The position numbers were made by a program, and so were the translations under genes. Positions 5,596-42,208 of a stretch of 64,000 nucleotides of DNA are shown piece by piece. Under the pieces are notes generated by a model. It had not been told where the DNA came from. It ran no database searches and saw nothing but the letters and a program-made list of their open reading frames with translations. Positions within the stretch are counted from its first letter, which is position 1, and every line of letters starts with the position of its first letter. This stretch comes from a virus, in IMG/VR virus record IMGVR_UViG_3300020446_001812, positions 32,001-96,000 of that record; one strand, written 5' to 3'.

Positions 5596-5943
5596 ATGGA
5601 CGAGAGATTAGAAAAAGCAATAAATTTTTCAAACTTTTTAGATACACAAAACAATCAAAAAAATATTTTTTACAAACAGTATCAAGAAAATTTAATACAT
5701 TATGCATTTGGACATAAATTTGTTGCAACTCCGCAACTTATAAATTTTCTATACACATTTGTAAAAGAACAAGAAAAAACTTGTATACTGATTGATGAAA
5801 ACAATACCCCTGTAGAAATACCTGATGTAAAAAGTTTTGCAAAAGAATTGTTAGGTGTTTACATCTTTGCCTCAAGAAAGTATGCAAAAGATTATAATGA
5901 TATAAAAACACACAGATCAGTTGAAGGATTAACTGACTTATGA
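5596..5943 (+). CDS. Hypothetical protein (first gene of tailoring island)
   Basis: AGGAG RBS before ATG 5596; overlaps the next gene by ATGA. Confidence 0.7.
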   Translation: MDERLEKAINFSNFLDTQNNQKNIFYKQYQENLIHYAFGHKFVATPQLINFLYTFVKEQEKTCILIDENNTPVEIPDVKSFAKELLGVYIFASRKYAKDYNDIKTHRSVEGLTDL

Positions 5944-6788
5944 CACATGGTGTTTTACTTTTTGCATTTAACAACAGTAATATAGATTATGTAAAGCAAG
6001 CAATATATTGTGCAAAACGTGTTAAAAAGCATTTAGGCTTGCAAGTACAATTAGTTACAGATGCTATTGATTATATAGAACAAACATATCCTTTTTATCA
6101 AAAATATATCGATCACATTACATACCAAGAGACGCCAAAATCTGCAAGGAAAAAATTTTATGACGGCATTTACTCAAACAAAACTTTAGAATGGAAAAAT
6201 AGTGCAAGGGACACAGCATACCATTTAAGTATATTTGATAAAACTTTAGTGATTGATACAGATTTAATTATATGTAACAACAAACTCTTAGAATGCTTTA
6301 CAAGCAATCAACAATTTATGATTGCAAAAAAATATAATCTTGTTAACACAAATAAAGTAGAACCTAGTTTTGATAAAATAAGCGATAAAAGTATTCCTAT
6401 GTTTTGGGCTACAATTTTATATTTTGAAAAATCAAAACAATCAAAATTAATTTTTGATTTAGTTTGTCATATAAAAGAAAATTACAACTATTACAGATTA
6501 GTTTATGATATTGTTGAAAAAAAATTTAGAAATGATTTTGCTTTTAGCATAGCAATACATATTATCAATAATTTTCAAAATAATAAAAGCTGGCCCTTAG
6601 CAATTCCAACAGATATGTGGGTATCGACTGACAAAGATATATTGGTAGATATTCAAAATGATAAAATTAAATTACTAGCACATAAAGAGTATGATTATAT
6701 CGTAGTCAAATTACAAGATGCAACTACACATATTATGAATAAATTTAGTCTTAACAAATATATTGATGAGGAATTTAAAAATGAGTAA
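5940..6788 (+). CDS. GT-A fold glycosyltransferase-like protein
   Basis: GVLLFAFN..DY..QA, ...R..AY.LS.FDKTLVIDTD (DxD), RNDFAFSIA. Confidence 0.65.
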   Translation: MTHGVLLFAFNNSNIDYVKQAIYCAKRVKKHLGLQVQLVTDAIDYIEQTYPFYQKYIDHITYQETPKSARKKFYDGIYSNKTLEWKNSARDTAYHLSIFDKTLVIDTDLIICNNKLLECFTSNQQFMIAKKYNLVNTNKVEPSFDKISDKSIPMFWATILYFEKSKQSKLIFDLVCHIKENYNYYRLVYDIVEKKFRNDFAFSIAIHIINNFQNNKSWPLAIPTDMWVSTDKDILVDIQNDKIKLLAHKEYDYIVVKLQDATTHIMNKFSLNKYIDEEFKNE

Positions 6789-7590
6789 CGGAATATGTAT
6801 TGTTGCTCAGAACAATAAGCAAACAGACTATGTGAGACAAACATATGGATTAGCACTAAGCATTTTAGCTAGTAACCCTAACACCAATATAAGCATTATT
6901 ACAAACGACATTGTTCAGCAAAAATACAAAAAAGTATTTGACCATATTATAGAAATACCATGGGATGACTTAGCAAAACAGCAATGGAAAATAGAGAATA
7001 GATGGAAAGTTTATCATTGTACTCCTTATAGAAACACTATGGTTTTTGATGCAGACATGTTAGTACTAGATAAAATCAATTGGGATTATCACGATCATAA
7101 TAATTTAGCATTTACAACAAACGTAAGCACGTATAGACAAGAAACAAGTAACAACAGGTATTATAGAAAAACGTTTGATGCAAATCTGTTACCTAACATT
7201 TATACTGCAATGTATTATTTTAAAAAACATCCAGAGGTAAAAGAATATTTTATACTTTTAGAACTTATTGTAAAAAATTGGCAGTATTTTTACAAAAAAT
7301 ACACTAACGTTAAAATGCAAAATTGGTGTAGCATGGATGTAAGTGCCGCCATTGCACTTAAAATATTAGGTATACAATCCTATTGTACTAATGAACAACT
7401 TACATTTACACATTTAAAACCTCACATGCAAAACTTTACACAAGTGCCTAGTAAAATATTTGACGCATGTAAAATTGATATAGATGATGGCATTTATATA
7501 AATGGATATAAACAAAAAGGTGTGTTACATTATGTAGAAGATGATTTTTTAACAGAAGATGTTTTATCTTGGTTAGAGGAGCAAGTCTAA
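6781..7590 (+). CDS. GT-A fold glycosyltransferase-like protein (paralog of 5940-6788)
   Basis: GICIVAQN..DY..Q, ENRWKVY..TPY..TMVFDADML (DxD), LHY near the C-terminus. Confidence 0.65.
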   Translation: MSNGICIVAQNNKQTDYVRQTYGLALSILASNPNTNISIITNDIVQQKYKKVFDHIIEIPWDDLAKQQWKIENRWKVYHCTPYRNTMVFDADMLVLDKINWDYHDHNNLAFTTNVSTYRQETSNNRYYRKTFDANLLPNIYTAMYYFKKHPEVKEYFILLELIVKNWQYFYKKYTNVKMQNWCSMDVSAAIALKILGIQSYCTNEQLTFTHLKPHMQNFTQVPSKIFDACKIDIDDGIYINGYKQKGVLHYVEDDFLTEDVLSWLEEQV

Positions 7591-8117
7591 TGTTTTATAT
7601 GCATTACGGAGAAGATGGAAATATTTTGTCAGTTGGTAATTCTATTGATAGTAATTTAAAATATATAGAAATAGACGAACAAATGTTTTTAGACTTCAAC
7701 GAAGGACGAAAACAAACTTTTGAATATAAGGTAATTGAAGATGTAAAACTAAACGGAAAAATGCATGTAGTGCCTGTAAACATAGACTTTATAGATCAGT
7801 TACAACATAAAAAAGGAGTGATTAAAGTAAGTAATAATGAAGATAATTGTATAAAAATTATGCAACATAAAGATAAATGGGAAATTATTAATTGCTTAAA
7901 TAATGAAACATCCTCTATTTTATCAGAAAATGATTACTATAGGGAATATTATATTACAAAAAATACAAACAAATACATCTTACTTGATAAGTTTGAAATA
8001 AATTTAAGAGATTTAGTATTTGAAAACATTTTTATAGAAGGGCACAGTGCGGAAAAGGAAGTTAGTATTATATGTTTTGAAAGTTATTTTAAACATATCC
8101 ATACCATATCAGTATAA
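7590..8117 (+). CDS. Hypothetical protein
   Basis: ORF translationally coupled on both sides; no recognisable motif. Confidence 0.6.
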   Translation: MFYMHYGEDGNILSVGNSIDSNLKYIEIDEQMFLDFNEGRKQTFEYKVIEDVKLNGKMHVVPVNIDFIDQLQHKKGVIKVSNNEDNCIKIMQHKDKWEIINCLNNETSSILSENDYYREYYITKNTNKYILLDKFEINLRDLVFENIFIEGHSAEKEVSIICFESYFKHIHTISV

Positions 8118-8818
8118 TGGATTTTACAAATTTTAAAAATTTAATTACATTTGGTTGTAGTCACACTTGGGGTGCGTGTATGCCTGATATATTTGACCCT
8201 AAGGATAAGCACGGTCAGCAAAGACACGACGGAAAAATATATCCAAGCAAATACGCTTGGGGCAATATCGTTGCTTCATTATTTGGTTTAACGCACAATA
8301 ACCAAGCGATGGCAGGAGCATCAAATAGATACATTTTATACAAAATTTTGAACCATGATTATGATAAAGATGTAGTATGTATACTTTGGTCGCATACACA
8401 CAGGCATACTGTTTTTAAAAGTGAAAAAAGATATGAAAATTGGGGGCCTTTTTCTGTAGACACTAGCAAAGCGGCAAAGATGTGGTATCAGCATTGTTAT
8501 CAAAGTTATGATAGTATTTTAGATACTGCACAGTGTATTAATCATGCAATGCTGTATTTGAATTCAAAGAATATTCCTAATTATCATATTTTGCAAACTA
8601 AACAAGGAAAAGATCTTTTTAAAGGATTTCCCAAAGAACCAATAAGATATATTTTAGATTCAAAAATACAAAATGTATTTTTTGATGAGTTTAGAAGGAT
8701 ACCACCTCTTGCACTTGATAATAAACATGCCGGTGAAAAAGCACATAGGAAATTTGGAAAAGCAGTTGCAAGATCTATCTTAAATAATAAACAAATTACA
8801 ATAGGAGAACTACTATGA
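8117..8818 (+). CDS. SGNH/GDSL-like hydrolase or acyltransferase
   Basis: Block I FGCSHTWG, block II NQAMAGASN, C-terminal DNKHAG (DxxH). Confidence 0.6.
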   Translation: MDFTNFKNLITFGCSHTWGACMPDIFDPKDKHGQQRHDGKIYPSKYAWGNIVASLFGLTHNNQAMAGASNRYILYKILNHDYDKDVVCILWSHTHRHTVFKSEKRYENWGPFSVDTSKAAKMWYQHCYQSYDSILDTAQCINHAMLYLNSKNIPNYHILQTKQGKDLFKGFPKEPIRYILDSKIQNVFFDEFRRIPPLALDNKHAGEKAHRKFGKAVARSILNNKQITIGELL

Positions 8819-9732
8819 AGGTTATAGATTATGATATAATATATCTATCATATGATGAACCCAATGCAGAAAAAAATTATGCTGACCTGTTAACGAAAGC
8901 ACCTTGGGCAAAACGTGTGCATGGAATCGAAGGATCAGATGCGGCACACAAGGCCTGTGCAGAATTATCTGAAACTGATAGGTTTATAACTGTTGACGGT
9001 GATAATATTATTAGAGCAGATTTCTTACAACAAGAATTAAATATTTCTAATGATGTTAAATTATCAGAAAGTGTAATTAGTTGGTGCGGAAAAAATTCTA
9101 TAAATGGATTAATGTATGGTAATGGTGGGTTAAAGTGTTGGCCTAAAGAATATGTATTAAATATGCGTACACATGAAAACGCAGATCCAAATAATGAAGC
9201 AGCTCAGGTTGATTTTTGTTGGGATTTGAAATACATTCAACAAAACAGTTGTTATTCAGATGTATATAACAATGCAACACCTCAACAGGCTTGGAGAGCT
9301 GGATTTAGAGAAGGTGTCAAGATGGCTCTTGATAGAGGAGTAAAACCTAGTGTTGAGGACTTTTTAAAAGGACATTGGAAAAACTTACATAGACTATGGA
9401 TATGGTTAATGGTAGGGTCTGATGTTGATAACGGATTATGGGCAATATATGGTGCCCGAGAAGGATTGGTTAAAACTATGTTAACGGATTGGGACTTTGT
9501 TAACGTTAGAGATTTTAAATATTTAAATAATTTATGGAAAGAAAAAGAAAAAGTAGATTCGCAAACTATGTTATTAGAAGCAATAGAAATATTAGGAGCA
9601 TCATTAATTGATAGTTTAGATATACCTATAGGACAAATGCCATTTGATGAACAGCAAAGTAAGTTTTTCAAGACTGTTTATCAAAATCCTAGTAGGAATC
9701 CAAAACAACAATTTGTAATAGACCCGGAATGA
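8815..9732 (+). CDS. GT-A fold glycosyltransferase-like protein
   Basis: YDIIYLSYDE, AAHKACA, FITVDGD (DxD), YGNGGLK, WRAGFREGVK. Confidence 0.65.
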   Translation: MKVIDYDIIYLSYDEPNAEKNYADLLTKAPWAKRVHGIEGSDAAHKACAELSETDRFITVDGDNIIRADFLQQELNISNDVKLSESVISWCGKNSINGLMYGNGGLKCWPKEYVLNMRTHENADPNNEAAQVDFCWDLKYIQQNSCYSDVYNNATPQQAWRAGFREGVKMALDRGVKPSVEDFLKGHWKNLHRLWIWLMVGSDVDNGLWAIYGAREGLVKTMLTDWDFVNVRDFKYLNNLWKEKEKVDSQTMLLEAIEILGASLIDSLDIPIGQMPFDEQQSKFFKTVYQNPSRNPKQQFVIDPE

Positions 9733-11063
9733 TCGATAATTTTCAACAGGTTAAAACAGAACTAGATAATGTAGGTTGCGGATTTTGCCTTGCTAAATGG
9801 ACGCAAGTTACAATTCATTTATCTTCCGGCATCACTCATAGTTGTCATCACGTAGGTGCTCATAAAATACCCCTTGATGAACTTAAACTAAATCCTAATG
9901 CATTACATAATACAAAAGAAAAGAAATTGCGTAGGAAAGAAATGCTTAACGGCGAACGTCCTAAAGAATGTGATTACTGTTGGAGAATTGAAGACAACAC
10001 TACAGAATATAGTGACAGAGTTCTAAAAAGTTCAAGGTCTTGGAGTCAAATAGATAAAGATAAAATATTACAAAATAATTGGGATGAAGATATATATCCT
10101 AGATATGTAGAAATAAGTTTTTCAAATGTTTGCAATTTTAAATGTGCATACTGTGGACCTCCTTTCAGTAGTAAATGGACAGAAGAAGTAAAATCATTAG
10201 GACCTTATAAATTAAAACAAAAACATTATAATGGAATTAAAAGCACAGAAGTTCCTTATACTAATAAAGAAGAGAATCCGTATATTGATGCATTTTGGAA
10301 ATGGTTTCCAGAATCAGTAAAACACATGAAAGTGTTTAGAATTACAGGAGGAGAGCCACTTTTATCTAAACATACATTACCTGTAATACAATATTTAATA
10401 GATAACCCACATCCAGATTTAGAATTTGCAATTAACACAAATGCATGTCCTCCGGATATTCTATGGAATATTTTTGTAGATAAAATTGTTGAATTAGAGA
10501 ATAATAAATCTGTTAAAAATTTTACTTTATATACAAGTGCTGAAAGTTACGGCAGTCAAGCAGAATATGTTAGAGATGGAATGGATTTTGATTTGTTTGA
10601 AAAAAATTTAACACATTTTATACAAAAAACAAAAAGGTCGAGAGTAACAATAATGAGTGCATTTAATATATTAAGTTTGCCTACATTGAAACCTTTTATA
10701 AGATGGTCAAATAAATTAAAAAGACTTTCGAGAGGCAGAGTGTTTTTAGATTTTGCATATGTAAGGCATCCAGAATTCTTAGATGTTAAAATTGCAGATA
10801 AAGATTTAATAGATCAGTATATTAAACCTGCTGTAGATTATATGATTGAAAAGGATGTATATACGGATTATGAAATATTTAAACTAGAAAGAATATATAA
10901 AGATTGTATTTCTAAATTAGAAAAAGAGTTTGATTTCAAATTAGAAAAATATCAATTTTACCAATTTGTAAATGAATACGACAAGAGACGTAATAAAAGT
11001 TTTTTGTTAACATTTCCAGAACTAAAAAACTTTTATAAAAAATGCGAGGCCTATTATGTATGA
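9729..11063 (+). CDS. Radical SAM protein with N-terminal Twitch/SPASM domain
   Basis: CNFKCAYC and TGGEP; N-terminal FCLAKW...HSCHH...ECDYCW. Confidence 0.9.
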   Translation: MIDNFQQVKTELDNVGCGFCLAKWTQVTIHLSSGITHSCHHVGAHKIPLDELKLNPNALHNTKEKKLRRKEMLNGERPKECDYCWRIEDNTTEYSDRVLKSSRSWSQIDKDKILQNNWDEDIYPRYVEISFSNVCNFKCAYCGPPFSSKWTEEVKSLGPYKLKQKHYNGIKSTEVPYTNKEENPYIDAFWKWFPESVKHMKVFRITGGEPLLSKHTLPVIQYLIDNPHPDLEFAINTNACPPDILWNIFVDKIVELENNKSVKNFTLYTSAESYGSQAEYVRDGMDFDLFEKNLTHFIQKTKRSRVTIMSAFNILSLPTLKPFIRWSNKLKRLSRGRVFLDFAYVRHPEFLDVKIADKDLIDQYIKPAVDYMIEKDVYTDYEIFKLERIYKDCISKLEKEFDFKLEKYQFYQFVNEYDKRRNKSFLLTFPELKNFYKKCEAYYV

Positions 11064-11739
11064 TATAGCATTTATAAGTTATAATGAAAAGCAAGCTGAT
11101 AAAAATTGGGAAATATTATCTAGTAAATTCAAATATGCCAAAAGAACGCACGGAGTAAAAGGTATACATCAAGCACATATAGAAGCGGCTAAAAAAGCAT
11201 TTACTCCAATGGTTTGGTTTGTAGATGCAGATGCTGAAATAAAAGAAGATTTTGATTTCAGCTATATTCCGCCAAGAAAAGATAGAGATGCTGTGCATGT
11301 ATGGAGAAGTCAAAATCCTATAAATGATTTAGAATATGGATACGGAGGCGTAAAACTTTTTCCAAGAATAGCTACTATAAATGTAGACGTTAATAAACCA
11401 GACATGACAACAAGTATTAGTAAAAAGTTTATACCTATGCATACTATAAGTAATACAACGATGTTTAATGTAGATGAATTTAGTACATGGAGAAGTGCAT
11501 TTCGAGAATGTGCAAAATTAGCAAGTAAAACAATTGATAGACAAAACGAGGAGGAAACAAATGCAAGACTTAAAACTTGGACAACCGTGGGACACACTAG
11601 AAAGTTTGGTGAATATGCGATTCGAGGTGCTTACGATGGTATGGAGTTTGGCCTTTCTAGGGGGGCTGATCTTCGGTTAATAAACAATTACGAATGGTTA
11701 AAGGAGCAGTTTGATGCAAACACAAGAATTATTAGATAA
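11056..11739 (+). CDS. GT-A fold glycosyltransferase-like protein (paralog of 8815-9732)
   Basis: YDIAFISYNE, HQAH, WFVDADA, YGYGGVK, WRSAFRECAK. Confidence 0.65.
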   Translation: MYDIAFISYNEKQADKNWEILSSKFKYAKRTHGVKGIHQAHIEAAKKAFTPMVWFVDADAEIKEDFDFSYIPPRKDRDAVHVWRSQNPINDLEYGYGGVKLFPRIATINVDVNKPDMTTSISKKFIPMHTISNTTMFNVDEFSTWRSAFRECAKLASKTIDRQNEEETNARLKTWTTVGHTRKFGEYAIRGAYDGMEFGLSRGADLRLINNYEWLKEQFDANTRIIR

Positions 11740-34145: not shown

Positions 34146-34157
34146 ATATATATTATT

Positions 34158-35096: not shown

Positions 35097-35967
35097 TTTT
35101 TGTGCCATTTACTAAATGATCTAATAAATCTTTTATCTCTATAAACATATGATTTTCTCTATAATTGTGTATCATTCCATTTACAATAAAATCTATTTTT
35201 TCACAGCCTTGATATTTTGGAAAGTATAAAAGATCATTGCTCCAGTTTTTTCCATAAAAAGTAGGTTTAATAAACAAGTCCCAATAGTTTATTATACTAA
35301 TGGGTTCTTCACCTTCATAAGATAAACCTGGAATATTGTAGTAATTCCATGCATTGCACACAGAGGTCAGTGTACCCTCCATTAGCACACTTGCAAGTAA
35401 ATGCTCGTCTTTTTCAAAGCCCACCACTGTATGACGCTTATTTCGCTGTTTATAGGCCCTTAATCGTGCATATTCTACACTGTTAGCTGACTCTAATATG
35501 TAGTGTTTTCCATTATGCACATATGGATCTGGCCCGTTAAATCCTTCTATCCATGTAAGTTTATCAGATATTTTTTCTAAAAATATGCTATGTAAAATTT
35601 GGTTAGGTGGAATTTTATGTTCTTGCGATTGGGCTAGTATAGTATCTTTTTCTTTGTAAGGATCTATTTCAACTATTGTTACATCTATATTCCATTTAGA
35701 TATACATTGTTGTACATTTTCATATTCGTTATCATTATATCCCTTCATACGCATAAAAGCACAAGGAATATTGACACCAACGTCTTTGAAAGCTAGGTAT
35801 GTTGCTTGACTGTCAGTGCCACCGCTAAAGCTAAGAATACAATCATTGTAGGTCTGTAAAATAGAATTAGCCCGCTCAGCAAATTCAACTCTAGGAGAAC
35901 CAACTGGGCGGGCTAACGGGGTTACATCAATATAAAAATTATTTTTATCGTCGAACCCATATGACAT
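35062..35967 (-). CDS. PP-loop ATP pyrophosphatase-like protein
   Basis: LSFSGGTDSQ; C-terminal PKYQGCEKI. Confidence 0.65.
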   Translation of the reverse strand: MSYGFDDKNNFYIDVTPLARPVGSPRVEFAERANSILQTYNDCILSFSGGTDSQATYLAFKDVGVNIPCAFMRMKGYNDNEYENVQQCISKWNIDVTIVEIDPYKEKDTILAQSQEHKIPPNQILHSIFLEKISDKLTWIEGFNGPDPYVHNGKHYILESANSVEYARLRAYKQRNKRHTVVGFEKDEHLLASVLMEGTLTSVCNAWNYYNIPGLSYEGEEPISIINYWDLFIKPTFYGKNWSNDLLYFPKYQGCEKIDFIVNGMIHNYRENHMFIEIKDLLDHLVNGTKTKRYIQRNPNL

Positions 35968-36480
35968 TTAGGCAGTAGTAGATTTTGGTTTTCTACCAGC
36001 CTTCTTAGGTGCTTTATCCTTTAGGCTTGGGTCAACAACTTGTGCAATTATTTTTGCCCATGGTACAACGTTCCATGTACGTTCATGTGCATAGTATAAG
36101 AACATGTTTATTGCTGTTGCTAGACCTGCAAAAATTGTTGCGTTACCCCAACTACCTGTAACAAGGAATGGGATAATAAAATTGTTTGATGTAATAACAA
36201 TTCTCCAGGTAATCATCTTAGCGGCAGATCTACCTTCTTGATCATCAAATGCTCTTGCAGGATTTTCTTTCCTCCATATTTGGAAATAATTCCAGGCTCT
36301 TTCGTGTAACCAATACAATGTACTGTTTATTAGTGTCGCCCAGCCTGCAATTTTTAAGCCCACTAAAAGACTTCCCGTAGCAAGAAAGCCATTCACTATG
36401 TGAGATATAGTAAGCAACACTCTCCAGGAAACCATTTTAGCAATAGTTCTAGGGTGTCTTTCATTAAACTTAGTAAACAT
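35968..36480 (-). CDS. Membrane protein with two tandem DUF2061-like repeats
   Basis: RTIAKMVSWR...TGS...LYWLHERAWN repeated as RSAAKMITWR...TGS...LYYAHERTWN; AGGAG RBS. Confidence 0.75.
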   Translation of the reverse strand: MFTKFNERHPRTIAKMVSWRVLLTISHIVNGFLATGSLLVGLKIAGWATLINSTLYWLHERAWNYFQIWRKENPARAFDDQEGRSAAKMITWRIVITSNNFIIPFLVTGSWGNATIFAGLATAINMFLYYAHERTWNVVPWAKIIAQVVDPSLKDKAPKKAGRKPKSTTA

Positions 36481-36491
36481 TTTTTCTCCTT

Positions 36492-36499
36492 TATTTATT
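36492..36499 (-). promoter_or_regulatory. Late promoter AATAAATA
   Basis: Upstream of the RBS of 35968-36480. Confidence 0.45.
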
Positions 36500-36502
36500 A
36501 AG

Positions 36503-36517
36503 TGCGTATATAACTAT
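36503..36517 (-). repeat. 15-bp inverted repeat, left copy (ATAGTTATATACGCA on - strand)
   Basis: Exact reverse complement of 37721-37735. Confidence 0.85.
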
Positions 36518-37704
36518 TTATTCCATTTTAGACTAGCTGGATTTATTTTTGGTACAATTGGACCTATTTTATAATTGACAGAATACACTTGTAAACCGTC
36601 TGCAAAGCCATGTTCTGTGTTAACAAACCTACTTGCGTTTGTCTTTACATAATTAATACCTTCTTGCCAAATAGTATGGTGTTTTGTACCTTTATGGCCT
36701 TCAATATACCAATGATCAAATTCACTGTACCAATCTAGCGTTGCTTTATCAGCTTGATACCATGAATTATTCCAAGAACTATACAGTAATGGCCTAAGCT
36801 CTCGTTCATGCATAGTTCTAAATAGATCAGCTGTCATATTTTTTCCATACCAAAAAGGCTGTTTTTCTGGTGTCAATTCTAACCAGTGTTTTATTGTGTA
36901 TGCTTGTTTGCATAATATATCTACACTTTCAGGCGCCCAATAAAAATACTCTACTGTGCTGTTATCATAATCTCGTATATGGTTTTCTATAGTTATGATA
37001 TTAGTCGATCTATCATTAAATCTAAGATAAAAATCTCCGTTTGAGTGTATGAAAGTCCTAGGTTTTTCAATACCAAGTATCAATCCTATTTTTTTACTTT
37101 TGTCAAATTGTTTTCTAACATCATTAAAATGTATGTAATTAAACCTTGTAACATTTAATGGATTTAGTCCTTCACGCTTATCCATTATCCAACTAGCATC
37201 GCCTTTGGAAAGCCAAGAATCAAATAAGTAATCAGACATATCTAATATTGTAATTTTTGTTTTCGGAGACAGTTTCTGTATTTCTTTTAGTCTTGGTATA
37301 GTTTGTAAATAATGCTCGGCCGCCGCATTTTTAGGATCTTTATTATTAGGGTCTATATCAGTGTAAGATAAATTTGCTTTTTCCATTGTGTTTACAATAA
37401 TTTCATCTATGATCAATCCTTGCCTAATAAAACTATTTGCTATATTTTGACTGTCACTACCTCCACTATAACTTAGTATTAAATAATCATAAGTGTCTCT
37501 TAATTGTTGAGCACGGACATCATATAATTTATCTAATGTTTGAGTAGGCTCAATATGCCAATTGTAGTTTTTAAAAGTATCAGTATTAAAATGCCATTGT
37601 ACATCTTGATTTGTAGATTGAGCAAAAAAACAAGCCTGAATTTTGCTATCAAATTCTATATTGCCAACGGTGTAGTATCCTAATTTTTTGTTAATTTCAT
37701 GCAT
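36514..37704 (-). CDS. PP-loop ATP pyrophosphatase-like protein (paralog of 41012-42208)
   Basis: LSYSGGSDSQ; LGYY..., GIEKPRT, EYFYW. Start placed at the second Met because a GATAAGTA motif at 37713-37720 lies upstream of it. Confidence 0.7.
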   Translation of the reverse strand: MHEINKKLGYYTVGNIEFDSKIQACFFAQSTNQDVQWHFNTDTFKNYNWHIEPTQTLDKLYDVRAQQLRDTYDYLILSYSGGSDSQNIANSFIRQGLIIDEIIVNTMEKANLSYTDIDPNNKDPKNAAAEHYLQTIPRLKEIQKLSPKTKITILDMSDYLFDSWLSKGDASWIMDKREGLNPLNVTRFNYIHFNDVRKQFDKSKKIGLILGIEKPRTFIHSNGDFYLRFNDRSTNIITIENHIRDYDNSTVEYFYWAPESVDILCKQAYTIKHWLELTPEKQPFWYGKNMTADLFRTMHERELRPLLYSSWNNSWYQADKATLDWYSEFDHWYIEGHKGTKHHTIWQEGINYVKTNASRFVNTEHGFADGLQVYSVNYKIGPIVPKINPASLKWNK

Positions 37705-37720
37705 CTCATGAGTACTTATC

Positions 37721-37735
37721 ATAGTTATATACGCA
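37721..37735 (+). repeat. 15-bp inverted repeat, right copy (ATAGTTATATACGCA)
   Basis: Exact reverse complement of 36503-36517; directly followed by GATAAATA. Confidence 0.85.
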
Positions 37736-37749: not shown

Positions 37750-38679
37750 ATGGAATCCAAAATCCCTATAATTGCAGCACCTATGAATCAAGTTTCCGAT
37801 GCAAATTTAGCTATTGCCTGCCACCGAGCAGGTATAATGCCTAGTATAAGTTTTCTTAACTTTGTAGACAAAGATACCCATACATGTGATTTTGAATCTT
37901 TTTTACGAGATGTTGAATACTTTACATCTTCAACTAATACAAACAAACTTATTATAAGTGTCAGTAGTAAAACCTTACTTAGAAAAGGAATACAAGATCA
38001 AGTTGTCAAATATTTTAACAAAATAAAATTTTCTCATTTAGAAATAATATTAACAGAAAGATTAGAATTTACAAATAAAAAATTAACACAAAACGATAAA
38101 GATCTTTTTGATAGTATAGAAGAAGCATTAAAAAGTTTACCTAAAGTAAAAATTATGTATAAAGCACTTGATGTATATAGTATTATACAAATTGCAAAAT
38201 ATACTGAATTTATAGATTGTTATGTACTTAAATCTAACAAAGGAGCAGGAACAATATCAAATTATACAAGCAATATATATGAAAGTATAAATTTGTTTAA
38301 AACAGAATGTCCTGGAAAAGAAATAATTGCAAGTGGCGGAATATCTACTGCTAAGGAAATAAAAAAATGTATCAAAGCTGGAGCAAAAGCAGTAGCAATA
38401 GGTACTTTGTTTGCTTTTGCAAAAGAAAGTAAAATTTCTAATGAATCAAAAAAAGTTATGATACAAAAAAATAAAAATGATTTAGACATAATTTCTGGTT
38501 ATCAGAATGGAGTTGTCTTTAATAAATTAGAGAAAGATGATAGTAACAACACATTTAGTCTTATAGAAGGCATTAAATCCCCTCACAAGGGTCATTTATT
38601 TGCTGGGCATGGATTAAATAATATAACAAATATTTTGTCAGTGCAAGAGATAGTGGATAAATTATGGCCGAAAAAATGA
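37750..38679 (+). CDS. FMN-dependent TIM-barrel oxidoreductase (nitronate monooxygenase/FabK-like)
   Basis: PIIAAPM..VS...LA.A...AG, IIASGGI, GAKAVAIGTLF...KES. Confidence 0.75.
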   Translation: MESKIPIIAAPMNQVSDANLAIACHRAGIMPSISFLNFVDKDTHTCDFESFLRDVEYFTSSTNTNKLIISVSSKTLLRKGIQDQVVKYFNKIKFSHLEIILTERLEFTNKKLTQNDKDLFDSIEEALKSLPKVKIMYKALDVYSIIQIAKYTEFIDCYVLKSNKGAGTISNYTSNIYESINLFKTECPGKEIIASGGISTAKEIKKCIKAGAKAVAIGTLFAFAKESKISNESKKVMIQKNKNDLDIISGYQNGVVFNKLEKDDSNNTFSLIEGIKSPHKGHLFAGHGLNNITNILSVQEIVDKLWPKK

Positions 38680-40061
38680 AATTTAGCTTAGACAGTTTTT
38701 GTCCTGAAGCATGGAATCAAATAGAAATAGATGCACAAGGTGATTATAAAATTTGCTGTTTAGCAAATTATGATAATGATTTCGGTATGGCTCTTGATAA
38801 AGACGGTAATGTAATGAATGTTAAAACACACACTATACAAGAAGCAATGAATAGTGAAACACATAAACAACATAGAAAAGAAATGAGCCAAAACATAAAG
38901 CCAAAAAGATGTAGGAACTGTTGGGATAGTGAAGAAAGCACAAGAAATCAAGAAGGTTTTGGTTATAAAGATAAATTTAAAAAATATGGCATAAGCAAAA
39001 GACAGCGTGTAATAAGAAATACGAGTAATGTAATTCCTGAGTATACCAAATGGAACGAGGCACATCTAGTTACAAGCGAAGATGGAACCTTGGATGTTGA
39101 AAATGTAAAACATGTAAATTTAGATTTGAGATTTGGAAACTTATGTAATCAAAAATGTATTATGTGTAGTCCGCAACATAGTAATCAATGGTACGATGAT
39201 TGGGTAGCAATAGGATACGGAGCTCCACAATATAATAGAAAAAAAGGAAGATATAAAAAAGGTAAAGCGAAAGAGTTCGAGTTTTTCTATGATGAACATA
39301 ATAGAGTCAAAATGGCTGGAATGGAACCTTGGTGGGAAAGTGAACAATGGTGGACTATGTTTGAGAAACAAGCAATGGACTTAAGGTACATATATTTTAC
39401 AGGAGGCGAACCATTAATTGTTCCACAAATGCAACAATGTTTAGATAGGTTAATAAACAAAGGGTATAGTAAGGACATTCAGCTAAGGTATGATACAAAT
39501 TTATCTGTAATAAACCAAAAGGTTATTGACAAATGGAAAAATTTTAAAGATGTTTTTTTATGTATCAGCGTTGATGATACCGATGAAAGATATAACACAA
39601 TAAGATATCCAGGAAATTTTGAAAGGTTAGAACAAAATATTATTAAATTAAAAGAAAACGGTATAGATATACATTACATAAGCACCTGTGTTGGCATTGC
39701 AAGTCCTTACAGTGTCCAACGTATATATGAGTTTGGAAAAAAATATAACATAGATACAAATTTTAGATTTTTAGAAGGTCCTAATTGGCTTGATATTAGA
39801 AACTATCCTGCAGATGCTAAAAAAGAAATAATTGAAAATTTACGCGATTATTCTACAGATAAAAAATATACTAGATGGGCAAACGCCGAAATAAAATTAT
39901 TAGAAAAATATATGGATCATAGTGAAGAAAAACATCTTAAAGAATTTATTAGAGTCATGGATGTTCTTGACAAACAAAGATCGACAGACTGGAGGAAAGC
40001 GATGCCAGATGTAGTAGATCTTTACAAAACATATTGCCCCGACATATATAAGGAAAAATAA
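38664..40061 (+). CDS. Radical SAM protein with N-terminal Twitch/SPASM domain
   Basis: CNQKCIMC, TGGEP; N-terminal FCPEAW...KICC...RCRNCW. Confidence 0.9.
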   Translation: MAEKMKFSLDSFCPEAWNQIEIDAQGDYKICCLANYDNDFGMALDKDGNVMNVKTHTIQEAMNSETHKQHRKEMSQNIKPKRCRNCWDSEESTRNQEGFGYKDKFKKYGISKRQRVIRNTSNVIPEYTKWNEAHLVTSEDGTLDVENVKHVNLDLRFGNLCNQKCIMCSPQHSNQWYDDWVAIGYGAPQYNRKKGRYKKGKAKEFEFFYDEHNRVKMAGMEPWWESEQWWTMFEKQAMDLRYIYFTGGEPLIVPQMQQCLDRLINKGYSKDIQLRYDTNLSVINQKVIDKWKNFKDVFLCISVDDTDERYNTIRYPGNFERLEQNIIKLKENGIDIHYISTCVGIASPYSVQRIYEFGKKYNIDTNFRFLEGPNWLDIRNYPADAKKEIIENLRDYSTDKKYTRWANAEIKLLEKYMDHSEEKHLKEFIRVMDVLDKQRSTDWRKAMPDVVDLYKTYCPDIYKEK

Positions 40062-40664
40062 ATGCATTATTATAGAATAGGAAAACTTAAAAAAGAAATT
40101 GTGCAAGAAATGCTTGCCGCAGTGTTAGAAAAAAGTGAACCAAGTAAAGGTTATCATTGGATTGAATTTGATGATAATTTAAATTCAATGTGGAATAATA
40201 TTTGGGAGAACAAAAATTTAAAAGTTAGACGCTGGGATAATAAATGGATACAAAAAGCATTTTACAGTCCTGTCGGTAAAGGTTGGAAAATACATAAAGA
40301 TGGAATAGATTGTAAAGTTGCATTGAACATTGCATTACAATCAAACGAATCTGATTGGGTGCGGTGGTATGACGAAGAATTAATAAATGATCTAGCAGAT
40401 ATAAATGTTACAGACGGTGACAAGGGAAAAGGACATAGTAGAAATATACCTATTAATGAGTACGAAGATATTTCTTTTATAGATGAATTAAAAGTTGAAC
40501 AAGGGGAAGTATATCTTGTTAATACAGATGTATTTCATAGTTTCTATTGTGGAGGTCCTAAAGATAGAGTAATTGTGCAAACTAAATTTCAGAATAATCC
40601 AAACTGGAATACTGTATTAGAAAATGTAAAGAAAAGTAATTTTACTCTTCAAGCCCGTGATTAA
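40062..40664 (+). CDS. 2OG-Fe(II) oxygenase-like protein
   Basis: IHKDG (HxD), ALNI, YLVNTDVFH...R.IV. Confidence 0.6.
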   Translation: MHYYRIGKLKKEIVQEMLAAVLEKSEPSKGYHWIEFDDNLNSMWNNIWENKNLKVRRWDNKWIQKAFYSPVGKGWKIHKDGIDCKVALNIALQSNESDWVRWYDEELINDLADINVTDGDKGKGHSRNIPINEYEDISFIDELKVEQGEVYLVNTDVFHSFYCGGPKDRVIVQTKFQNNPNWNTVLENVKKSNFTLQARD

Positions 40665-40950
40665 GACAAACAATTTCCCATGCTTCATTCCATTCTTTTT
40701 CAGCTGTCAAATTGTTTTGCCATTGATCTTTAGCCATTTCTTCTTCTAAATCTAATCCTTTATCATCTGCCCATGTAGATTTTATTTTCATCACTAATTG
40801 AGAAGAATCTGTGTATTCCATTACTCTCCAAGAAAGGCATTTTCCAGTATCTAGATATTCTGATTTAATCCATGCTTTGAATTCATCAGATGGTGTATAC
40901 CATTCGGCGTCAGTATGGGGTCTCATAAAAGTTTTGCTGTAAATTGCCAT
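40642..40950 (-). CDS. Small hypothetical protein (102 aa) with its own late promoter
   Basis: AGGAG RBS and GATAAATA (40968-40975) upstream. Confidence 0.75.
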   Translation of the reverse strand: MAIYSKTFMRPHTDAEWYTPSDEFKAWIKSEYLDTGKCLSWRVMEYTDSSQLVMKIKSTWADDKGLDLEEEMAKDQWQNNLTAEKEWNEAWEIVCLNHGLEE

Positions 40951-40967
40951 AATCTATCTCCTACTAT

Positions 40968-40975
40968 TATTTATC
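40968..40975 (-). promoter_or_regulatory. Late promoter GATAAATA
   Basis: TATTTATC on the + strand, upstream of the RBS of 40642-40950. Confidence 0.55.
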
Positions 40976-41011
40976 ACTAAATATCATGTAATAGATATAA
41001 AGAGGTTACCG

Positions 41012-42208
41012 ATGAAAGTCCCCCATAAAGAATTAGGTTACTATATATGTGATAACAAAGTATTTACATCTAAAATACATGCTTGTATATATGCAACTCA
41101 GCATAAAAAACAAATAGAATGGGTTTTTAACAATGATGTTTTTGATAATTTCCCATGGCAAATAGAACCTCAAGAATCACTAGATGAACTGTATTTCCAA
41201 AGGGCTAGGCAGATTAGAGAACAATATGATTACATATGTTTGGCATTCAGTGGTGGTGGAGATAGTAATAATATACTTGAAGCATTTCTAAGACAAGGCA
41301 TTTTTATAGATGAAGTCGTTACAAATGTAATGGAAGACTTGAATAATTTGACAACTGTAAATCGCAATGAAATAAACAATTGGAACGAGGGTGCAGAATA
41401 TAAATTACAAACAGAAGATAGACTAAAAGCACTTAAGAATAGAAGTCCTAATACAAAAATAAGTGTAATTGATCTTAGTAAAGGACTTTTTGAATTATTT
41501 AATTCTTATGGTGATGCTGGATGGATTGAAAAAACTAGAGAGAGAATGAATCCTAGTGGTTTCATGAGGCATAATTTCCTCCATATGAAAGAAATACGTA
41601 AAAGATTTGATAAAGATAAAAAAATATGTATGTTACTTGGAATAGAAAAACCTCGTACATATATCAAAGGAAACACTTTTAAAATGTGTTTTAGTGATAA
41701 AGCTGTTAATATTGCAACAGTAGGAGAATTTATTCCTGAATATAATAATACTAGTATAGAATATTTTTACTGGCATCCAGAAGGCGCAAAAATAATTGCA
41801 AAGCAATGCCATGTTATTAAAAGATGGTTAGAACACAATCCTAATTATTTGCCATATTGGAAACCTAGAAGTATAGGAGACATATGGACTAATCATAGAA
41901 AGTATCATGAACGTATTTTAAGACCATTAATTTATAATAGTACTTGGCACCAAAATTACTGGCAAGCAAACAAAAGCACAAAAGATTGGTATAGTGAGAT
42001 AGATGATTGGTTTTGGACTGCTCATAAAAACACTAAAGAACATGCTATATGGAGGCAGGGTCTTGATTACGTAAAAGATAATGCAAAAGACTGGATGATG
42101 CCTGGCGATGTAGAAGGTTTAAAGGGTTTCTTGCATGCATACGAAATTGGCGAAATGAATCCTATAAAATTAGAATTACCTACAAATAATGTTGTTTTAG
42201 CTGATTAG
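41012..42208 (+). CDS. PP-loop ATP pyrophosphatase-like protein (paralog of 36514-37704)
   Basis: LAFSGGGDSN; collinear similarity with 36514-37704. Confidence 0.7.
   Translation: MKVPHKELGYYICDNKVFTSKIHACIYATQHKKQIEWVFNNDVFDNFPWQIEPQESLDELYFQRARQIREQYDYICLAFSGGGDSNNILEAFLRQGIFIDEVVTNVMEDLNNLTTVNRNEINNWNEGAEYKLQTEDRLKALKNRSPNTKISVIDLSKGLFELFNSYGDAGWIEKTRERMNPSGFMRHNFLHMKEIRKRFDKDKKICMLLGIEKPRTYIKGNTFKMCFSDKAVNIATVGEFIPEYNNTSIEYFYWHPEGAKIIAKQCHVIKRWLEHNPNYLPYWKPRSIGDIWTNHRKYHERILRPLIYNSTWHQNYWQANKSTKDWYSEIDDWFWTAHKNTKEHAIWRQGLDYVKDNAKDWMMPGDVEGLKGFLHAYEIGEMNPIKLELPTNNVVLAD

What the first reader, a model, noticed from the sequence alone, without database searches (positions are those of the whole stretch)
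5596..42208. ~37-kb phage-encoded tailoring island (11 radical SAM enzymes plus oxygenases, GTs, PP-loop ligases, desaturases) between tail-fibre genes
Seen: 43 tightly coupled genes, mostly modifying enzymes, flanked by tail/baseplate genes on the left (1-5534) and a tail fibre on the right (42205-43860). Several internal genes are preceded by the same (G)ATAAATA motif that precedes the structural genes. No scaffold-building enzyme (NRPS, PKS, terpene cyclase, NeuB) is recognisable in the island. Known: radical SAM/SPASM proteins, B12 radical SAM methylases, 2OG oxygenases, GNATs and AsnB-like PP-loop enzymes are the standard tailoring kit of RiPP and glycan pathways. Inference: the substrate is supplied from outside the island, most plausibly virion proteins or a glycan on them. 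That would be a virion hypermodification system affecting host range, stability or defence evasion. Alternative targets are the host surface or lipids.
Basis: partly seen in the sequence, partly recalled or inferred. Interest (0 to 1): 0.92.

Follow-up and report, generated by a model that had tools for sequence, protein, structure and literature searches.

The report
Fibre-linked radical-SAM and glycosyltransferase island
An uncultured marine giant phage devotes about 37 kb between its tail-fibre genes to four sugar-transferase-like enzymes, eleven radical SAM enzymes and changeable accessory genes; the block is real and shared by the phage's relatives, it most likely builds and edits a sugar-type decoration late in infection, but its product and target are unmeasured.

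Summary
Window 5572-42208 carries 43 tightly packed genes, 11 of them radical SAM (rSAM), bracketed by tail-fibre genes. It is not a mis-assembly. Independent metagenomic contigs of related phages carry an island at the same site, 17 to 54 kb long.

The island is not one uniform 43-gene pathway. Around this sits cargo that differs from phage to phage.

Seven of the rSAMs have the N-terminal-twitch architecture of NCBIfam NF033640, a catalogued but uncharacterised family; six pass its cut-off. The relatives carry 8-10 each.

An rSAM/methyltransferase core also lies in Bdellovibrionales chromosomes.

A depleted ATAAATA motif sits upstream of fibre genes and some island genes. This suggests late co-expression with the fibres.

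Best reading (about 0.45): a soluble, late-expressed glycan-tailoring system. A virion target is plausible but unshown.

Claimed 2OG oxygenases and AsnB-like enzymes were not confirmed. PP-loop proteins, desaturases and B12-rSAMs were.

Comparable hypervariable fibre-linked islands with GT8 genes and rSAM cassettes are published for pelagimyophages. This scan has met the same island type on many other genomes.

The parts
1..5534 (+). Left boundary: tail collar/fibre paralogues (1-1110, 1107-3029, 3065-4594) and a Ser/Thr/Gly-rich protein read as fibre-like (4620-5534). ATAAATA motifs lie at 3037 and 4591.
   Evidence: PHROG tail-fibre and virion-structural hits for 1-4594; 4620-5534 has no PHROG hit and is fibre-like only by composition and by its conserved position after the fibre genes. 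Homologues of 3065 and 4620 flank the island in G001, G002, G005 and L006.
5572..5943 (+). Conserved 123-aa protein of unknown function, the first island gene.
   Evidence: Homologues at the same position in G001, G002, G005 and L006. No Pfam hit.
5940..7590 (+). Tandem pair of GT8-like (GT-A, DxD 'DTD') glycosyltransferase-like proteins, 5940-6788 and 6763-7590.
   Evidence: Tandem pair conserved in all full-length relatives. All 19 PDB hits of profile A3 are glycogenins, E 0.004-0.2, and the Asp of the DxD motif is invariant.
8815..11739 (+). GT2-like paralogues 8815-9732 and 11056-11739, with an N_Twi rSAM (9729-11063) between them.
   Evidence: Pfam Glycos_transf_2 E 4e-4, below cut-off. 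Atlas clusters are named GT2-like. The two are paralogous. In G001 they are fused with the MT-like protein in one 827-aa ORF.
11711..12670 (+). Methyltransferase-like protein: helical repeats plus a Rossmann-like C-terminal half.
   Evidence: Sequence features. Homologues are present in phage relatives and in the Bdellovibrionales clusters. The MT assignment rests on motif reading, not on an HMM hit.
12657..12893 (+). Previously unlisted 78-aa protein (TTG start). It is nearly invariant and always lies just upstream of the 13823-type rSAM.
   Evidence: 61-78% identity in 7 related loci. 1320 metagenomic clusters, no Pfam domain, 40 invariant positions. Natural fusions exist to a GT2-like domain (P0296) and to another domain (P0325, P0329).
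12883..13830 (+). Nitroreductase-domain protein, accessory.
   Evidence: Pfam PF00881, 27.6 bits, above cut-off. The position is not conserved in relatives.
13823..14890 (+). Core rSAM with a C-terminal twitch-like Cys domain.
   Evidence: 45-83% identity in phage relatives and 42-45% in Bdellovibrionales.
14887..17008 (+). Window-specific three-gene insert: unknown 167 aa, a PseF-like cytidylyltransferase (15369-16091) and unknown 306 aa.
   Evidence: CTP_transf_3 E 7e-11. PseF E 7e-25, below cut-off. No homologues in relatives. The 306-aa protein folds confidently (pLDDT 84) but matches no known fold.
17011..23436 (+). N_Twi rSAM run (17011, 19967, 21141, 22279) with unknowns 18437 and 19306. 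The 17011 and 22279 genes belong to the conserved orthogroups.
   Evidence: NF033640 scores of 212-419 bits against a 170 cut-off. Tree.
24201..25328 (+). The most conserved core rSAM: 75-91% identity in phages, 60-67% in bacteria.
   Evidence: The AF2 model's nearest structures are viperin, MoaA and BlsE, at low TM.
25264..35096 (+). Variable cargo: unknowns; an N_Twi-like rSAM at 26468 (160 bits, below cut-off); a weak GNAT; two DesA-like desaturases; two B12-type rSAMs; AdoMet decarboxylase; FA hydroxylase; a PP-loop protein at 34158. An ATAAATA motif lies at 28089.
   Evidence: Homologues in relatives are mostly absent or below 35% identity.
35062..37722 (-). Minus-strand cassette: PP-loop protein (35062-35967), DUF2061 membrane protein, PP-loop protein (36514-37722). 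ATAAATA motifs lie at 36492 and 36515.
37750..42208 (+). FMN TIM-barrel (NMO/IMPDH-like) protein; N_Twi rSAM at 38664; unknown 200 aa; a 102-aa ORF at 40642-40950(-); PP-loop protein at 41012 (paralogue of 36514).
   Evidence: ATAAATA motifs at 37737 and 40968(-).
42205..43860 (-). Right boundary: fibre protein with an Mtd_N domain, preceded by ATAAATA at 43892.
   Evidence: Pfam Mtd_N E 1.7e-11. Divergent homologues lie at the right end of the G001 and G002 islands. No DGR-type repeats.

Best explanation
The region is the fibre-linked hypervariable island of a marine giant myovirus. The contig is about 30% complete by CheckV. Its DNA polymerase is nearest to Rak2/GAP32/Atu_ph07-type jumbo phages.

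The island has two layers.

Layer 1 is a conserved, co-linear backbone transcribed behind the fibre-like gene 4620. It holds two GT8-like and two GT2-like soluble glycosyltransferases, a methyltransferase-like protein, a nearly invariant 74-78-aa protein that is physically tied to the GT2-like enzyme, and four radical SAM enzymes: 13823, 17011, 22279 and 24201.

Layer 2 is fast-turning cargo. It holds further N-terminal-twitch rSAM paralogues, B12-type rSAMs, PP-loop ATPases, a PseF-like cytidylyltransferase, membrane di-iron desaturases and a hydroxylase, and AdoMet decarboxylase.

Most likely mechanism. All of the following is inferred. Late in infection the soluble transferases assemble a sugar-type decoration in the cytoplasm. 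The rSAM array and the other tailoring enzymes edit its building blocks or the finished chain, through reactions such as C-methylation, deoxygenation, epimerisation or amidation. Each phage therefore displays a different chemistry. The acceptor is most plausibly a virion (fibre) protein or the small invariant protein.

What is shown: gene content, conservation pattern, position, and motif placement. What is inferred: the sugar chemistry, the timing and the target.
For: The island is real and lineage-wide.
- Relatives G001, G002, G005 and L006/L007, from different metagenomes, carry an island at this site. In G001, G002 and L006 it lies between homologues of 3065/4620 and of 43904-46816; in G005 only the 44208 and 45391 homologues and a partial 3065 match mark the ends. 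Island lengths run from about 17 to 54 kb.
- The ordered backbone is conserved.

Sugar theme.
- The GT8-like profile hits only glycogenins.
- The GT2-like call rests on a sub-threshold Pfam hit and Atlas cluster names.
- GT2+GT2+MT are fused in G001.
- The small protein is fused to a GT2-like domain in P0296.
- There is a PseF-like cytidylyltransferase, with weak WbuX and WbuZ/AglZ-type hits.
- The relatives' islands hold a carbamoyltransferase, a GDP-mannose-dehydratase/epimerase, Glyco_transf_7C and an FkbM methyltransferase.
- Structurally, rSAM 24201 is nearest to the nucleotide-acting enzymes viperin, MoaA and BlsE, and it has a sub-threshold viperin HMM hit.

Soluble machinery.
- A crude hydropathy scan finds no polytopic flippase- or polymerase-like protein.
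- Its only TM-like segments are in the desaturases, the hydroxylase, DUF2061 and one in the cytidylyltransferase.

Timing and linkage.
- ATAAATA is depleted about five-fold.
- 12 of 21 sites lie within 45 nt upstream of starts, including the fibre genes 3065 and 43860(-), the fibre-like gene 4620, and island genes 28101, 37750, 36480(-) and 40950(-).
- Genes 5572-28092 have no motif of their own upstream and are packed behind 4620.

Diversification.
- The phages carry 7-10 N_Twi paralogues each.
- Only two orthogroups are conserved.
Against: - No glycan, modified protein or transcript has been measured.
- Both GT families are below curated thresholds, and the GT2-like profile finds nothing in the PDB.
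- The island lacks a recognisable nucleotide-sugar synthesis core: no NeuB/PseI and no aminotransferase. The PseF hit is far below cut-off (88 against 206 bits).
- The homologous bacterial core (Bdellovibrionales) has no GT-like genes. Its nearest PF01370 epimerase is 42-45 kb away. The rSAM core can therefore work without these transferases.
- Desaturases, a hydroxylase and AdoMet decarboxylase are known marine-phage host-metabolism genes. They need not belong to the same pathway.
- SPASM/twitch rSAMs are more often peptide-modifying than sugar-modifying.
- The promoter role of ATAAATA is inferred by analogy with the T4 late promoter TATAAATA, which I cite from my own knowledge.
Confidence: 0.45

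Rival explanations
1. Host-surface or host-metabolism remodelling. The island is a plastic 'host recognition cluster' in the sense used for pelagimyophages. Its transferases and tailoring enzymes would act on host envelope glycans or lipids to block superinfection, and its desaturases, hydroxylase and SpeD would act on host membranes or metabolism. In this reading the region is a collection of separate auxiliary modules, not one pathway.
For: - The published pelagimyophage and cyanomyophage hypervariable island holds fibres, GT8 genes, LPS-type genes and rSAM cassettes, and is read that way (PMC7029224).
- The cargo turns over, and in relatives it includes unrelated genes such as ThyA, DHFR, an S8 peptidase and a SET domain.
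- The desaturases and hydroxylase are membrane proteins.
- The PseF/KdsB-like cytidylyltransferase fits envelope sugars.
Against: - No flippase, polymerase, Und-P-linked or polytopic GT among the 43 genes by a crude hydropathy scan.
- All four GT-like proteins are soluble.
- The promoter-like motif is shared with fibre genes, which suggests late expression. That is late for superinfection exclusion.
- The backbone order is strongly conserved, and rSAMs are enriched far beyond random cargo: 11 of 43 genes here and 40 of 143 in relatives.
Confidence: 0.22
2. Protein or peptide maturation, RiPP-like. The nearly invariant 74-78-aa protein, or the fibre proteins themselves, would be the substrate. 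The twitch/SPASM-type rSAMs would cross-link, methylate or epimerise it, and the transferases would then decorate it, as in glycosylated peptide-derived products such as mycofactocin.
For: - The small gene always lies directly upstream of rSAM 13823 and is extremely conserved.
- The best sub-threshold HMM neighbours of the N_Twi enzymes are peptide maturases and MoaA.
- The relatives' islands carry 8 Asp/Asn beta-hydroxylase-type genes, an S8 protease and a SET domain.
- An FMN TIM-barrel protein, a GT2-like protein and an MT-like protein loosely echo the mycofactocin gene set; this comparison is from my own knowledge.
Against: - The small protein is conserved along its whole length, not split into a leader and a variable core, and it has no Cys.
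- It is absent from the bacterial clusters that keep the same four rSAMs.
- It occurs fused to a GT2-like enzyme, which is more like a domain or subunit than a precursor.
- No RRE/PqqD domain was detected.
- The Cys-His-tailed small proteins reported by earlier notes for other phages are not present here.
Confidence: 0.18
3. DNA or nucleotide hypermodification. The PP-loop ATPases, rSAMs, transferases and AdoMet decarboxylase would extend the phage's 7-deazaguanine pathway, or another base-modification pathway.
For: - The right arm encodes QueE-like, GTP cyclohydrolase and phosphoribosyltransferase-like genes.
- There are four PP-loop proteins with weak QueC-type hits.
- The viperin/MoaA-like fold of 24201 points to nucleotide substrates.
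- Phage GTs are known to glycosylate DNA (cited in PMC12619734).
Against: - The island lies inside the fibre module, away from the replication and deazaguanine genes.
- Its promoter-like motif is that of the structural genes, and only two of the twelve start-proximal sites lie in the right arm.
- No DpdA/TGT-like gene or hydroxymethylase was seen in the island.
- PP-loop matches cover only the nucleotide-binding loop.
Confidence: 0.07
4. Assembly artefact: a bacterial LPS/capsule locus joined to phage DNA.
For: GC is 4-5 points lower in the island than in the flanks. A homologous five-gene core exists in bacterial chromosomes.
Against: - Five or more independent contigs from other samples carry an island at this site. 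In G001, G002 and L006 both flanks match; in G005 only part of each flank does.
- Exact window proteins occur on up to 15-31 contigs, some 193-199 kb long.
- The same promoter-like motif and the same gene packing run across both junctions.
Confidence: 0.01

Closest known systems
Host recognition cluster (HRC), the hypervariable island of pelagimyophages and cyanomyophages (Zaragoza-Solas et al. 2020, PMC7029224; cyanophage hyperplastic region, Millard et al. 2009, as cited there)
   Same: - A large (mean 44.6 kb) non-syntenic island inside the structural module, containing tail fibres.
- Many glycosyltransferases, GT8 being the commonest.
- LPS-type genes, and radical SAM gene cassettes that differ between close relatives.
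- speH, desaturase and Asp/Asn hydroxylase genes occur in the same phages.
   Different: - The published phages are T4-like genomes of about 150 kb. Here the polymerase groups with Rak2/GAP32/Atu_ph07-type jumbo phages, and CheckV implies about 350 kb.
- Here the rSAM array is the dominant content: 11 of 43 genes, with 7-10 N-terminal-twitch paralogues per phage.
- There is a fixed backbone that includes an invariant small protein. Neither feature is described in that paper.
- The VrlC/gp14 borders were not tested.
NCBIfam NF033640, N_Twi_rSAM (twitch domain-containing radical SAM protein)
   Same: Six island proteins score 212-419 bits against a cut-off of 170. They have the N-terminal 4-Cys domain followed by CxxxCxxC.
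   Different: As far as my literature searches show, the family is a catalogue entry with no characterised member. The name therefore gives architecture, not function. Gene 26468 scores 160 bits, just below the cut-off.
Campylobacter phages CP220/CPt10 (11-12 radical SAM genes; PMC2853527) and marine environmental viral genome TARA_ERS488813_N000010 (12 radical SAM genes; PMC5332604)
   Same: Large myoviruses with about a dozen rSAM genes. Part of the set lies in an interchangeable module, and the function is unknown.
   Different: Sequence relatedness is only distant: the CP21 rSAM is 25% identical over half of 24201. The CP220 clusters go with amidinotransferases, not with GT8/GT2-like genes at the fibre locus.
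Virus-encoded virion glycosylation (mycobacteriophage capsid and tail-tube glycosylation, Freeman et al. 2023, as cited in PMC12619734; giant-virus and chlorovirus glycan clusters, from my own knowledge)
   Same: Soluble virus-encoded glycosyltransferases sit next to structural genes, and clade-specific sugar-tailoring gene sets vary between relatives.
   Different: Those systems have measured glycans and use ordinary sugar-nucleotide enzymes. None uses an array of radical SAM enzymes. Here no glycan has been observed.
Chromosomal rSAM cluster of Bdellovibrionales MAGs (L020-L025)
   Same: Some combination of MT-like protein and rSAMs homologous to 11711, 13823, 17011, 22279 and 24201, at 42-67% identity for the rSAMs. 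All five are present only in L020 and L023. L021, L022 and L025 lack a close 22279-type copy, and L024 lacks both that and the MT-like gene.
   Different: - In L023 the cluster is genuinely bacterial: it lies next to dnaG and rpoD and includes a carbamoyltransferase.
- By tblastn or HMM search with the phage proteins, it has no GT8/GT2-like genes, no small invariant protein and no fibre genes.
- The four Bdellovibrionales MAGs searched (G007-G010) lack the phage ATPase.

Membership tests
NF033640 N_Twi_rSAM | Whole-protein score at or above the curated cut-off of 170 bits | tested here: met
   9729: 316; 17011: 419; 19967: 308; 21141: 212; 22279: 410; 38664: 291 bits. Gene 26468 scores 160, just below. 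Genes 13823 and 24201 match only the core and are not members.
NF033640 N_Twi_rSAM | Auxiliary 4-Cys (twitch-like) domain N-terminal to the CxxxCxxC radical SAM motif | tested here: met
   In alignment A1, C8, C75, C78 and the CxxxCxxC Cys are invariant, and a CC pair is present in most. Pfam SPASM matches fall at residues 4-106, ahead of the Radical_SAM domain.
Class B (B12-binding) radical SAM enzymes | N-terminal B12-binding domain plus a radical SAM domain | tested here: met
   31617: B12-binding 34.4 bits (cut-off 32.1) plus Radical_SAM 62 bits. 29630: B12-binding only 20.6 bits, below cut-off. No equivalog cut-off is reached; for example PhpK scores 55-75 against 600, so the substrate is unknown.
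Glycosyltransferase family 8 (GT-A) | Recognisable GT8 sequence profile with a DxD motif | tested here: inconclusive
   No Pfam hit. Profile A3 hits only glycogenins across residues 3-107, at E 0.004-0.2. The Asp of 'DTD' is invariant.
Glycosyltransferase family 2 (GT-A) | Pfam PF00535 above the gathering score | tested here: not met
   11056 scores 20.7 bits against 23.3. 8815 has no Pfam hit but falls in Atlas clusters auto-named GT2-like. Profile A8 finds nothing in the PDB. I therefore write 'GT2-like', not member.
PP-loop ATP pyrophosphatases (adenine nucleotide alpha-hydrolases) | SGGxDS nucleotide-binding loop | tested here: met
   SGGLDS (34158), SGGTDS (35062-), SGGSDS (36514-) and SGGGDS (41012). 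QueC, LarE, WbuX and NadE HMM hits are all below cut-off and cover only the loop.
AsnB-type asparagine synthase | Pfam Asn_synthase domain | tested here: not met
   PF00733 has no match in the whole contig at E <= 1.
Fe(II)/2OG oxygenases | Match to 2OG-FeII_Oxy_3 or Asp_Arg_Hydrox inside the island | tested here: not met
   PF13640 hits only window 61594-61866(-), outside the island. PF05118 has no hit in this contig, but 7, 2 and 2 hits in G001, G002 and G005. Other 2OG families were not searched.
RiPP biosynthetic cluster | Short precursor with leader and core next to a maturase that has a peptide-recognition (RRE) domain | tested here: inconclusive
   A conserved 78-aa gene lies upstream of rSAM 13823. 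However, it is uniformly conserved, no RRE was detected, it is absent from the bacterial clusters, and it is fused to a GT2-like enzyme elsewhere.
Pseudaminic/nonulosonic acid pathway | PseF equivalog score, plus PseB/C/H/G/I partners | tested here: not met
   PseF scores 87.9 bits against a cut-off of 205.7. No NeuB/PseI, aminotransferase or dehydratase domain appears in the window island.
Diversity-generating retroelement target (Mtd-type fibre) | Template/variable repeat pair and a reverse transcriptase near the Mtd-like gene | tested here: not met
   Only the Mtd_N domain matches. There are no near-identical direct repeats of 40 nt or more in the window. No reverse transcriptase was searched for beyond the Pfam scans of the listed ORFs.
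Pelagimyophage-type host recognition cluster | Hypervariable island inside the structural module, containing fibres, GT8 genes and rSAM cassettes | tested here: met
   for this lineage. The definition comes from PMC7029224. The VrlC/gp14 borders were not tested, and the phage lineage differs.
Phage virion glycosylation system | Glycan demonstrated on virion proteins | not testable with these tools
   Only gene position and the shared promoter-like motif speak for it.

The most novel reading that the evidence does not exclude
The conserved backbone would be a new kind of viral post-translational chemistry. Four soluble glycosyltransferases would build a glycan on a virion fibre protein or on the invariant 74-78-aa protein. 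An array of N-terminal-twitch radical SAM enzymes, a family with no characterised member, would then perform C-H functionalisation directly on that sugar or glycopeptide. The swappable paralogues would give each phage a different surface chemistry, amounting to a radical-SAM-driven 'serotype' system for virions.
Probability: 0.2. Interest if true: 0.85.

Novelty: new variant of a known kind. Interest (0 to 1): 0.62.

Why it matters
Roughly a tenth of these abundant marine giant-phage genomes is spent on this island. Its dominant enzyme family, the N-terminal-twitch radical SAM proteins, has no known reaction.

If the product decorates virions, it would be a new layer of host-range or defence-evasion variation in ocean phages. 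It would also be a source of new radical glycan or glycopeptide chemistry. If instead it remodels the host envelope, it bears on superinfection exclusion in the sea.

The session also supplies a defined minimal set to test. That set is two GT8-like proteins, two GT2-like proteins, the MT-like protein, the 78-aa protein and four rSAMs. A bacterial counterpart that lacks the transferases can serve for comparison.

Tried and rejected
- Complex prediction of the 78-aa protein with rSAM 13823: no verdict (score 0.00). This is not evidence either way.
So there is no read-level junction check, no RNA evidence and no Pfam-annotated neighbourhoods of the long (343-346 kb) contigs.
- PDB sequence searches found nothing for 22279, 24201, 13823, P0325, P0296 or the GT2-like profile.
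- Protein 16088 gave a confident AF2 model, but Foldseek found nothing and VIA gave at best Z 3.6 (ParB/Srx-like, not interpretable).
- The model of 24201 is only moderate (pLDDT 62). Its viperin/MoaA/BlsE neighbours have TM 0.35-0.46, so they are a lead only.
- Plasmid collection: no homologue of 17011. GenBank phages: no near relative by DNA; only distant N_Twi hits in Vibrio and Ralstonia jumbo phages.
- Fe-S assembly gene (PF01521): none in the four phage fragments, all of which are incomplete.
- DGR repeats: none.
- Cys-His-tailed small proteins reported by earlier scan notes: none in this contig.
I could not confirm this: the nearest PF01370 epimerase is 42-45 kb away, although a carbamoyltransferase is inside the cluster.
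- My guess that the C-terminal domain of P0325/P0329 is GT9-like rests on one motif read by eye and is unverified.

Full report
**What is there**

The window is bases 32001-96000 of a single 106,431-bp virus contig with 33% GC and no terminal repeat. CheckV rates it about 30% complete.

The left end encodes tail collar/fibre and virion-structural proteins. Gene 42205-43860(-) carries an Mtd_N fibre domain. The right arm holds replication and 7-deazaguanine genes: DNA polymerase, exonuclease, a QueE-like protein and GTP cyclohydrolase. The polymerase is 45-51% identical to those of Rak2/GAP32/CBB/Atu_ph07/Phosso-type jumbo phages. Homologous proteins come largely from Tara and other marine data, on contigs up to 193-199 kb for near-identical copies and 343-346 kb for about 70% relatives.

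**Check of the observation**

Between 5572 and 42208 I count 43 ORFs, 39 on + and 4 on -. Of 38 same-strand junctions, 35 overlap or lie within 10 nt. GC is 31.1% against 36.0% and 34.6% in the flanks.

Eleven radical SAM proteins are confirmed. Six pass the curated cut-off of NCBIfam NF033640, 'twitch domain-containing radical SAM protein', and a seventh falls just below it. In all seven the auxiliary Cys domain precedes the CxxxCxxC motif. Two are B12-type.

Also confirmed:
- two DesA-like desaturases and a fatty-acid-hydroxylase-type protein, all with predicted membrane segments;
- AdoMet decarboxylase;
- a nitroreductase domain;
- a cytidylyltransferase whose best, sub-threshold match is PseF;
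- an FMN TIM-barrel protein;
- four proteins with the PP-loop motif SGGxDS.

The GNAT is a weak hit only.

**The ATAAATA motif**

ATAAATA is five-fold depleted. In the whole contig, 12 of 21 sites sit within 45 nt upstream of a start codon, where chance gives 2.2%. These include sites ahead of the fibre genes 3065 and 43860(-), the fibre-like gene 4620, and island genes 28101, 37750, 36480(-) and 40950(-). Only two of the twelve lie in the replication arm.

By analogy with the T4 late promoter TATAAATA (my own knowledge), I read it as a late-type promoter element. Genes 5572-28092 have no start-proximal site of their own and are packed behind 4620.

**Comparison with relatives**

A search with rSAM 22279 found nine IMG/VR loci. 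Boundary searches and tblastn locate the island at the same place in related contigs. In G001, G002 and L006 it lies between homologues of 3065/4620 and of 43904-46816; in G005 only the 44208 and 45391 homologues and a partial 3065 match mark the ends. Lengths differ widely: about 17 kb (L006/L007), 39 kb (G001), 43 kb (G005) and 54 kb (G002). This rules out a chimeric assembly.

A fixed, ordered backbone is shared: 5572, the 5940/6763 pair, 8815, 11056, 11711, 13823, 17011, 22279 and 24201. The last is 75-91% identical across phages. By tblastn at half-length coverage, about 17-19 window genes have no or only marginal counterparts in these relatives.

A Pfam census of 143 ORFs from the three large related islands gives 40 radical SAM, 13 SPASM and 8 Asp/Asn-hydroxylase-type proteins. 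It also gives single desaturase, carbamoyltransferase, GDP-mannose-dehydratase/epimerase, aminotransferase, FkbM, Glyco_transf_7C, S8 peptidase, SET, ThyA and DHFR domains.

N-terminal-twitch paralogues number 7 (window), 8, 9 and 9-10. In a tree, only the 17011 and 22279 groups are conserved orthogroups. The rest are deep, phage-specific branches. Divergent homologues of the Mtd_N fibre close the islands of G001 and G002, so the island sits inside the fibre module.

**The unknowns of the backbone**

The tandem pair 5940/6763 aligns with a DxD motif, and its profile hits only glycogenins (GT8) in the PDB, weakly. Genes 8815 and 11056 are paralogous and GT2-like. That call rests on a sub-threshold Pfam hit and on Atlas cluster names. 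Gene 11711 looks like a class I methyltransferase by motif. In G001 the two GT2-like proteins and the MT-like protein form one 827-aa ORF.

**A gene the ORF list missed**

In the 212-nt 'gap' at 12671-12882 lies a 78-aa gene, 12657-12893, with a TTG start. It is 61-78% identical in all seven related loci and always lies immediately upstream of the 13823-type rSAM, with at most one gene between. It forms 1320 clusters in public metagenomes, has no Pfam domain, and shows 40 invariant positions in a sample of 21 clusters.

A full profile search of 1.84 billion representatives found natural fusions. P0296 is a 11056-like GT2 domain with this protein as its C-terminal domain. P0325 and P0329 carry it at the N-terminus of another, unidentified domain.

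It was not found in the bacterial clusters. The fusion ties it to the transferases and weakens a simple precursor-peptide reading.

**Bacterial counterpart**

MAG contigs labelled Bdellovibrionales (GC 43-58%) carry 11711-, 13823-, 17011-, 22279- and 24201-like genes in varying combinations, at 42-67% identity for the rSAMs. All five are present only in L020 and L023. In L023 they lie next to dnaG and rpoD and include a carbamoyltransferase. The four Bdellovibrionales MAGs searched (G007-G010) lack the phage ATPase, so the cluster is genuinely chromosomal. By search with the phage proteins it has no GT-like genes. The nearest NAD-epimerase gene is 42-45 kb away.

A Crocinitomicaceae MAG contig (L019) is simply a close relative of the phage. 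It is 83% identical, and the MAG also holds the phage ATPase.

**Structure leads**

The rSAM 24201 gave a moderate model whose nearest solved structures are viperin, MoaA and BlsE, all acting on nucleotides or nucleoside sugars, but at low TM-scores. The window-specific protein 16088 folds confidently but matches nothing.

**Interpretation**

The best-supported reading is a two-layer island. One layer is a conserved, soluble, probably late-expressed transferase/rSAM backbone. The other is rapidly exchanged tailoring cargo. Together they most likely make and diversify a sugar-type decoration. The target is unknown; a virion protein is favoured only by position and promoter motif.

Rivals are host-envelope or host-metabolism remodelling, a RiPP-like protein maturation centred on the small protein, and DNA hypermodification. 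The first is the published reading for the analogous pelagimyophage island (PMC7029224). A crude hydropathy scan finds no flippase- or polymerase-like polytopic protein, which argues mildly against O-antigen work. The GT-less bacterial core argues that the rSAM chemistry does not intrinsically need these transferases.

**What is known already**

- Phage genomes with about a dozen radical SAM genes were reported for CP220/CPt10 (PMC2853527) and for a marine environmental genome (PMC5332604).
- Hypervariable fibre-linked islands with GT8 genes and rSAM cassettes were described in pelagimyophages.
- A paper on large aquatic 'moraphages' notes four core glycosyltransferase orthogroups (PMC12619734). 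Kinship to this phage was not tested.
- Earlier notes of this scan report the same island type on many other genomes and mostly reach the same 'sugar-tailoring' reading.

- the backbone/cargo split for this lineage;
- the invariant 78-aa protein and its fusion to a GT2-like enzyme;
- the quantified promoter-like motif;
- the checks that remove 2OG and AsnB enzymes from the inventory.

None of the chemistry has been measured.

Noticed in passing
window 50383-55274 (-): 7-deazaguanine-type gene set in the replication arm: QueE-like rSAM (50863-51810), GTP cyclohydrolase (51794-52483), phosphoribosyltransferase-like protein (53165-53701), and small or unknown ORFs beside them. No clear QueC was identified. 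This suggests modified guanine in the phage DNA.
   Followed up: no
G000:C1:15211-30093 (+), upstream of the window: A single 4960-aa ORF preceded by a 1211-aa ORF, both with ATAAATA sites close by (upstream of the 1211-aa ORF, and downstream of the 4960-aa ORF at its neighbour's start). This is probably a giant fibre or VrlC-like structural protein, which would parallel the VrlC border of the pelagimyophage island.
   Followed up: no
window 12883-13830 (+): The nitroreductase domain occupies only residues 137-271. The N-terminal ~130 aa are an unassigned helical region, which other first-reader notes on this genome compare to a phycobiliprotein helix. I did not test that.
   Followed up: no
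window 61585-62187 (-): The only 2OG-Fe(II) oxygenase-type match in the contig (PF13640, 24 bits, below cut-off). It lies in the replication arm, not in the island.
   Followed up: partly
L019 (MAG contig JBDNIA010000282.1, Crocinitomicaceae): A 33-kb contig binned in a Bacteroidota MAG is a close relative of this phage island (about 83% protein identity). Another contig of the same MAG holds the phage ATPase. This is either a host hint or bin contamination.
   Followed up: partly
L023 (Bdellovibrionales MAG, JANPLN010000015.1, about 185-210 kb): A chromosomal cluster of at least six rSAM genes plus an MT-like protein and a NodU/CmcH-type carbamoyltransferase, directly beside dnaG-rpoD. Similar clusters are conserved in L020-L022, with reduced versions in L024 and L025.
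   Followed up: partly
protein P0289 (1631 aa, metagenomic): Eighteen separate matches to positions 48-65 of the small-protein profile (the W-Y...G-D-L-P-S...G-P-G-K stretch) in one large protein. This is either a repeat protein built from that motif or a low-complexity artefact.
   Followed up: no
window 36514-37722 (-) and 41012-42208 (+): Two about 400-aa PP-loop paralogues on opposite strands flank the last rSAM cassette. Both lie in clusters that are purely viral in the ESM Atlas.
   Followed up: partly
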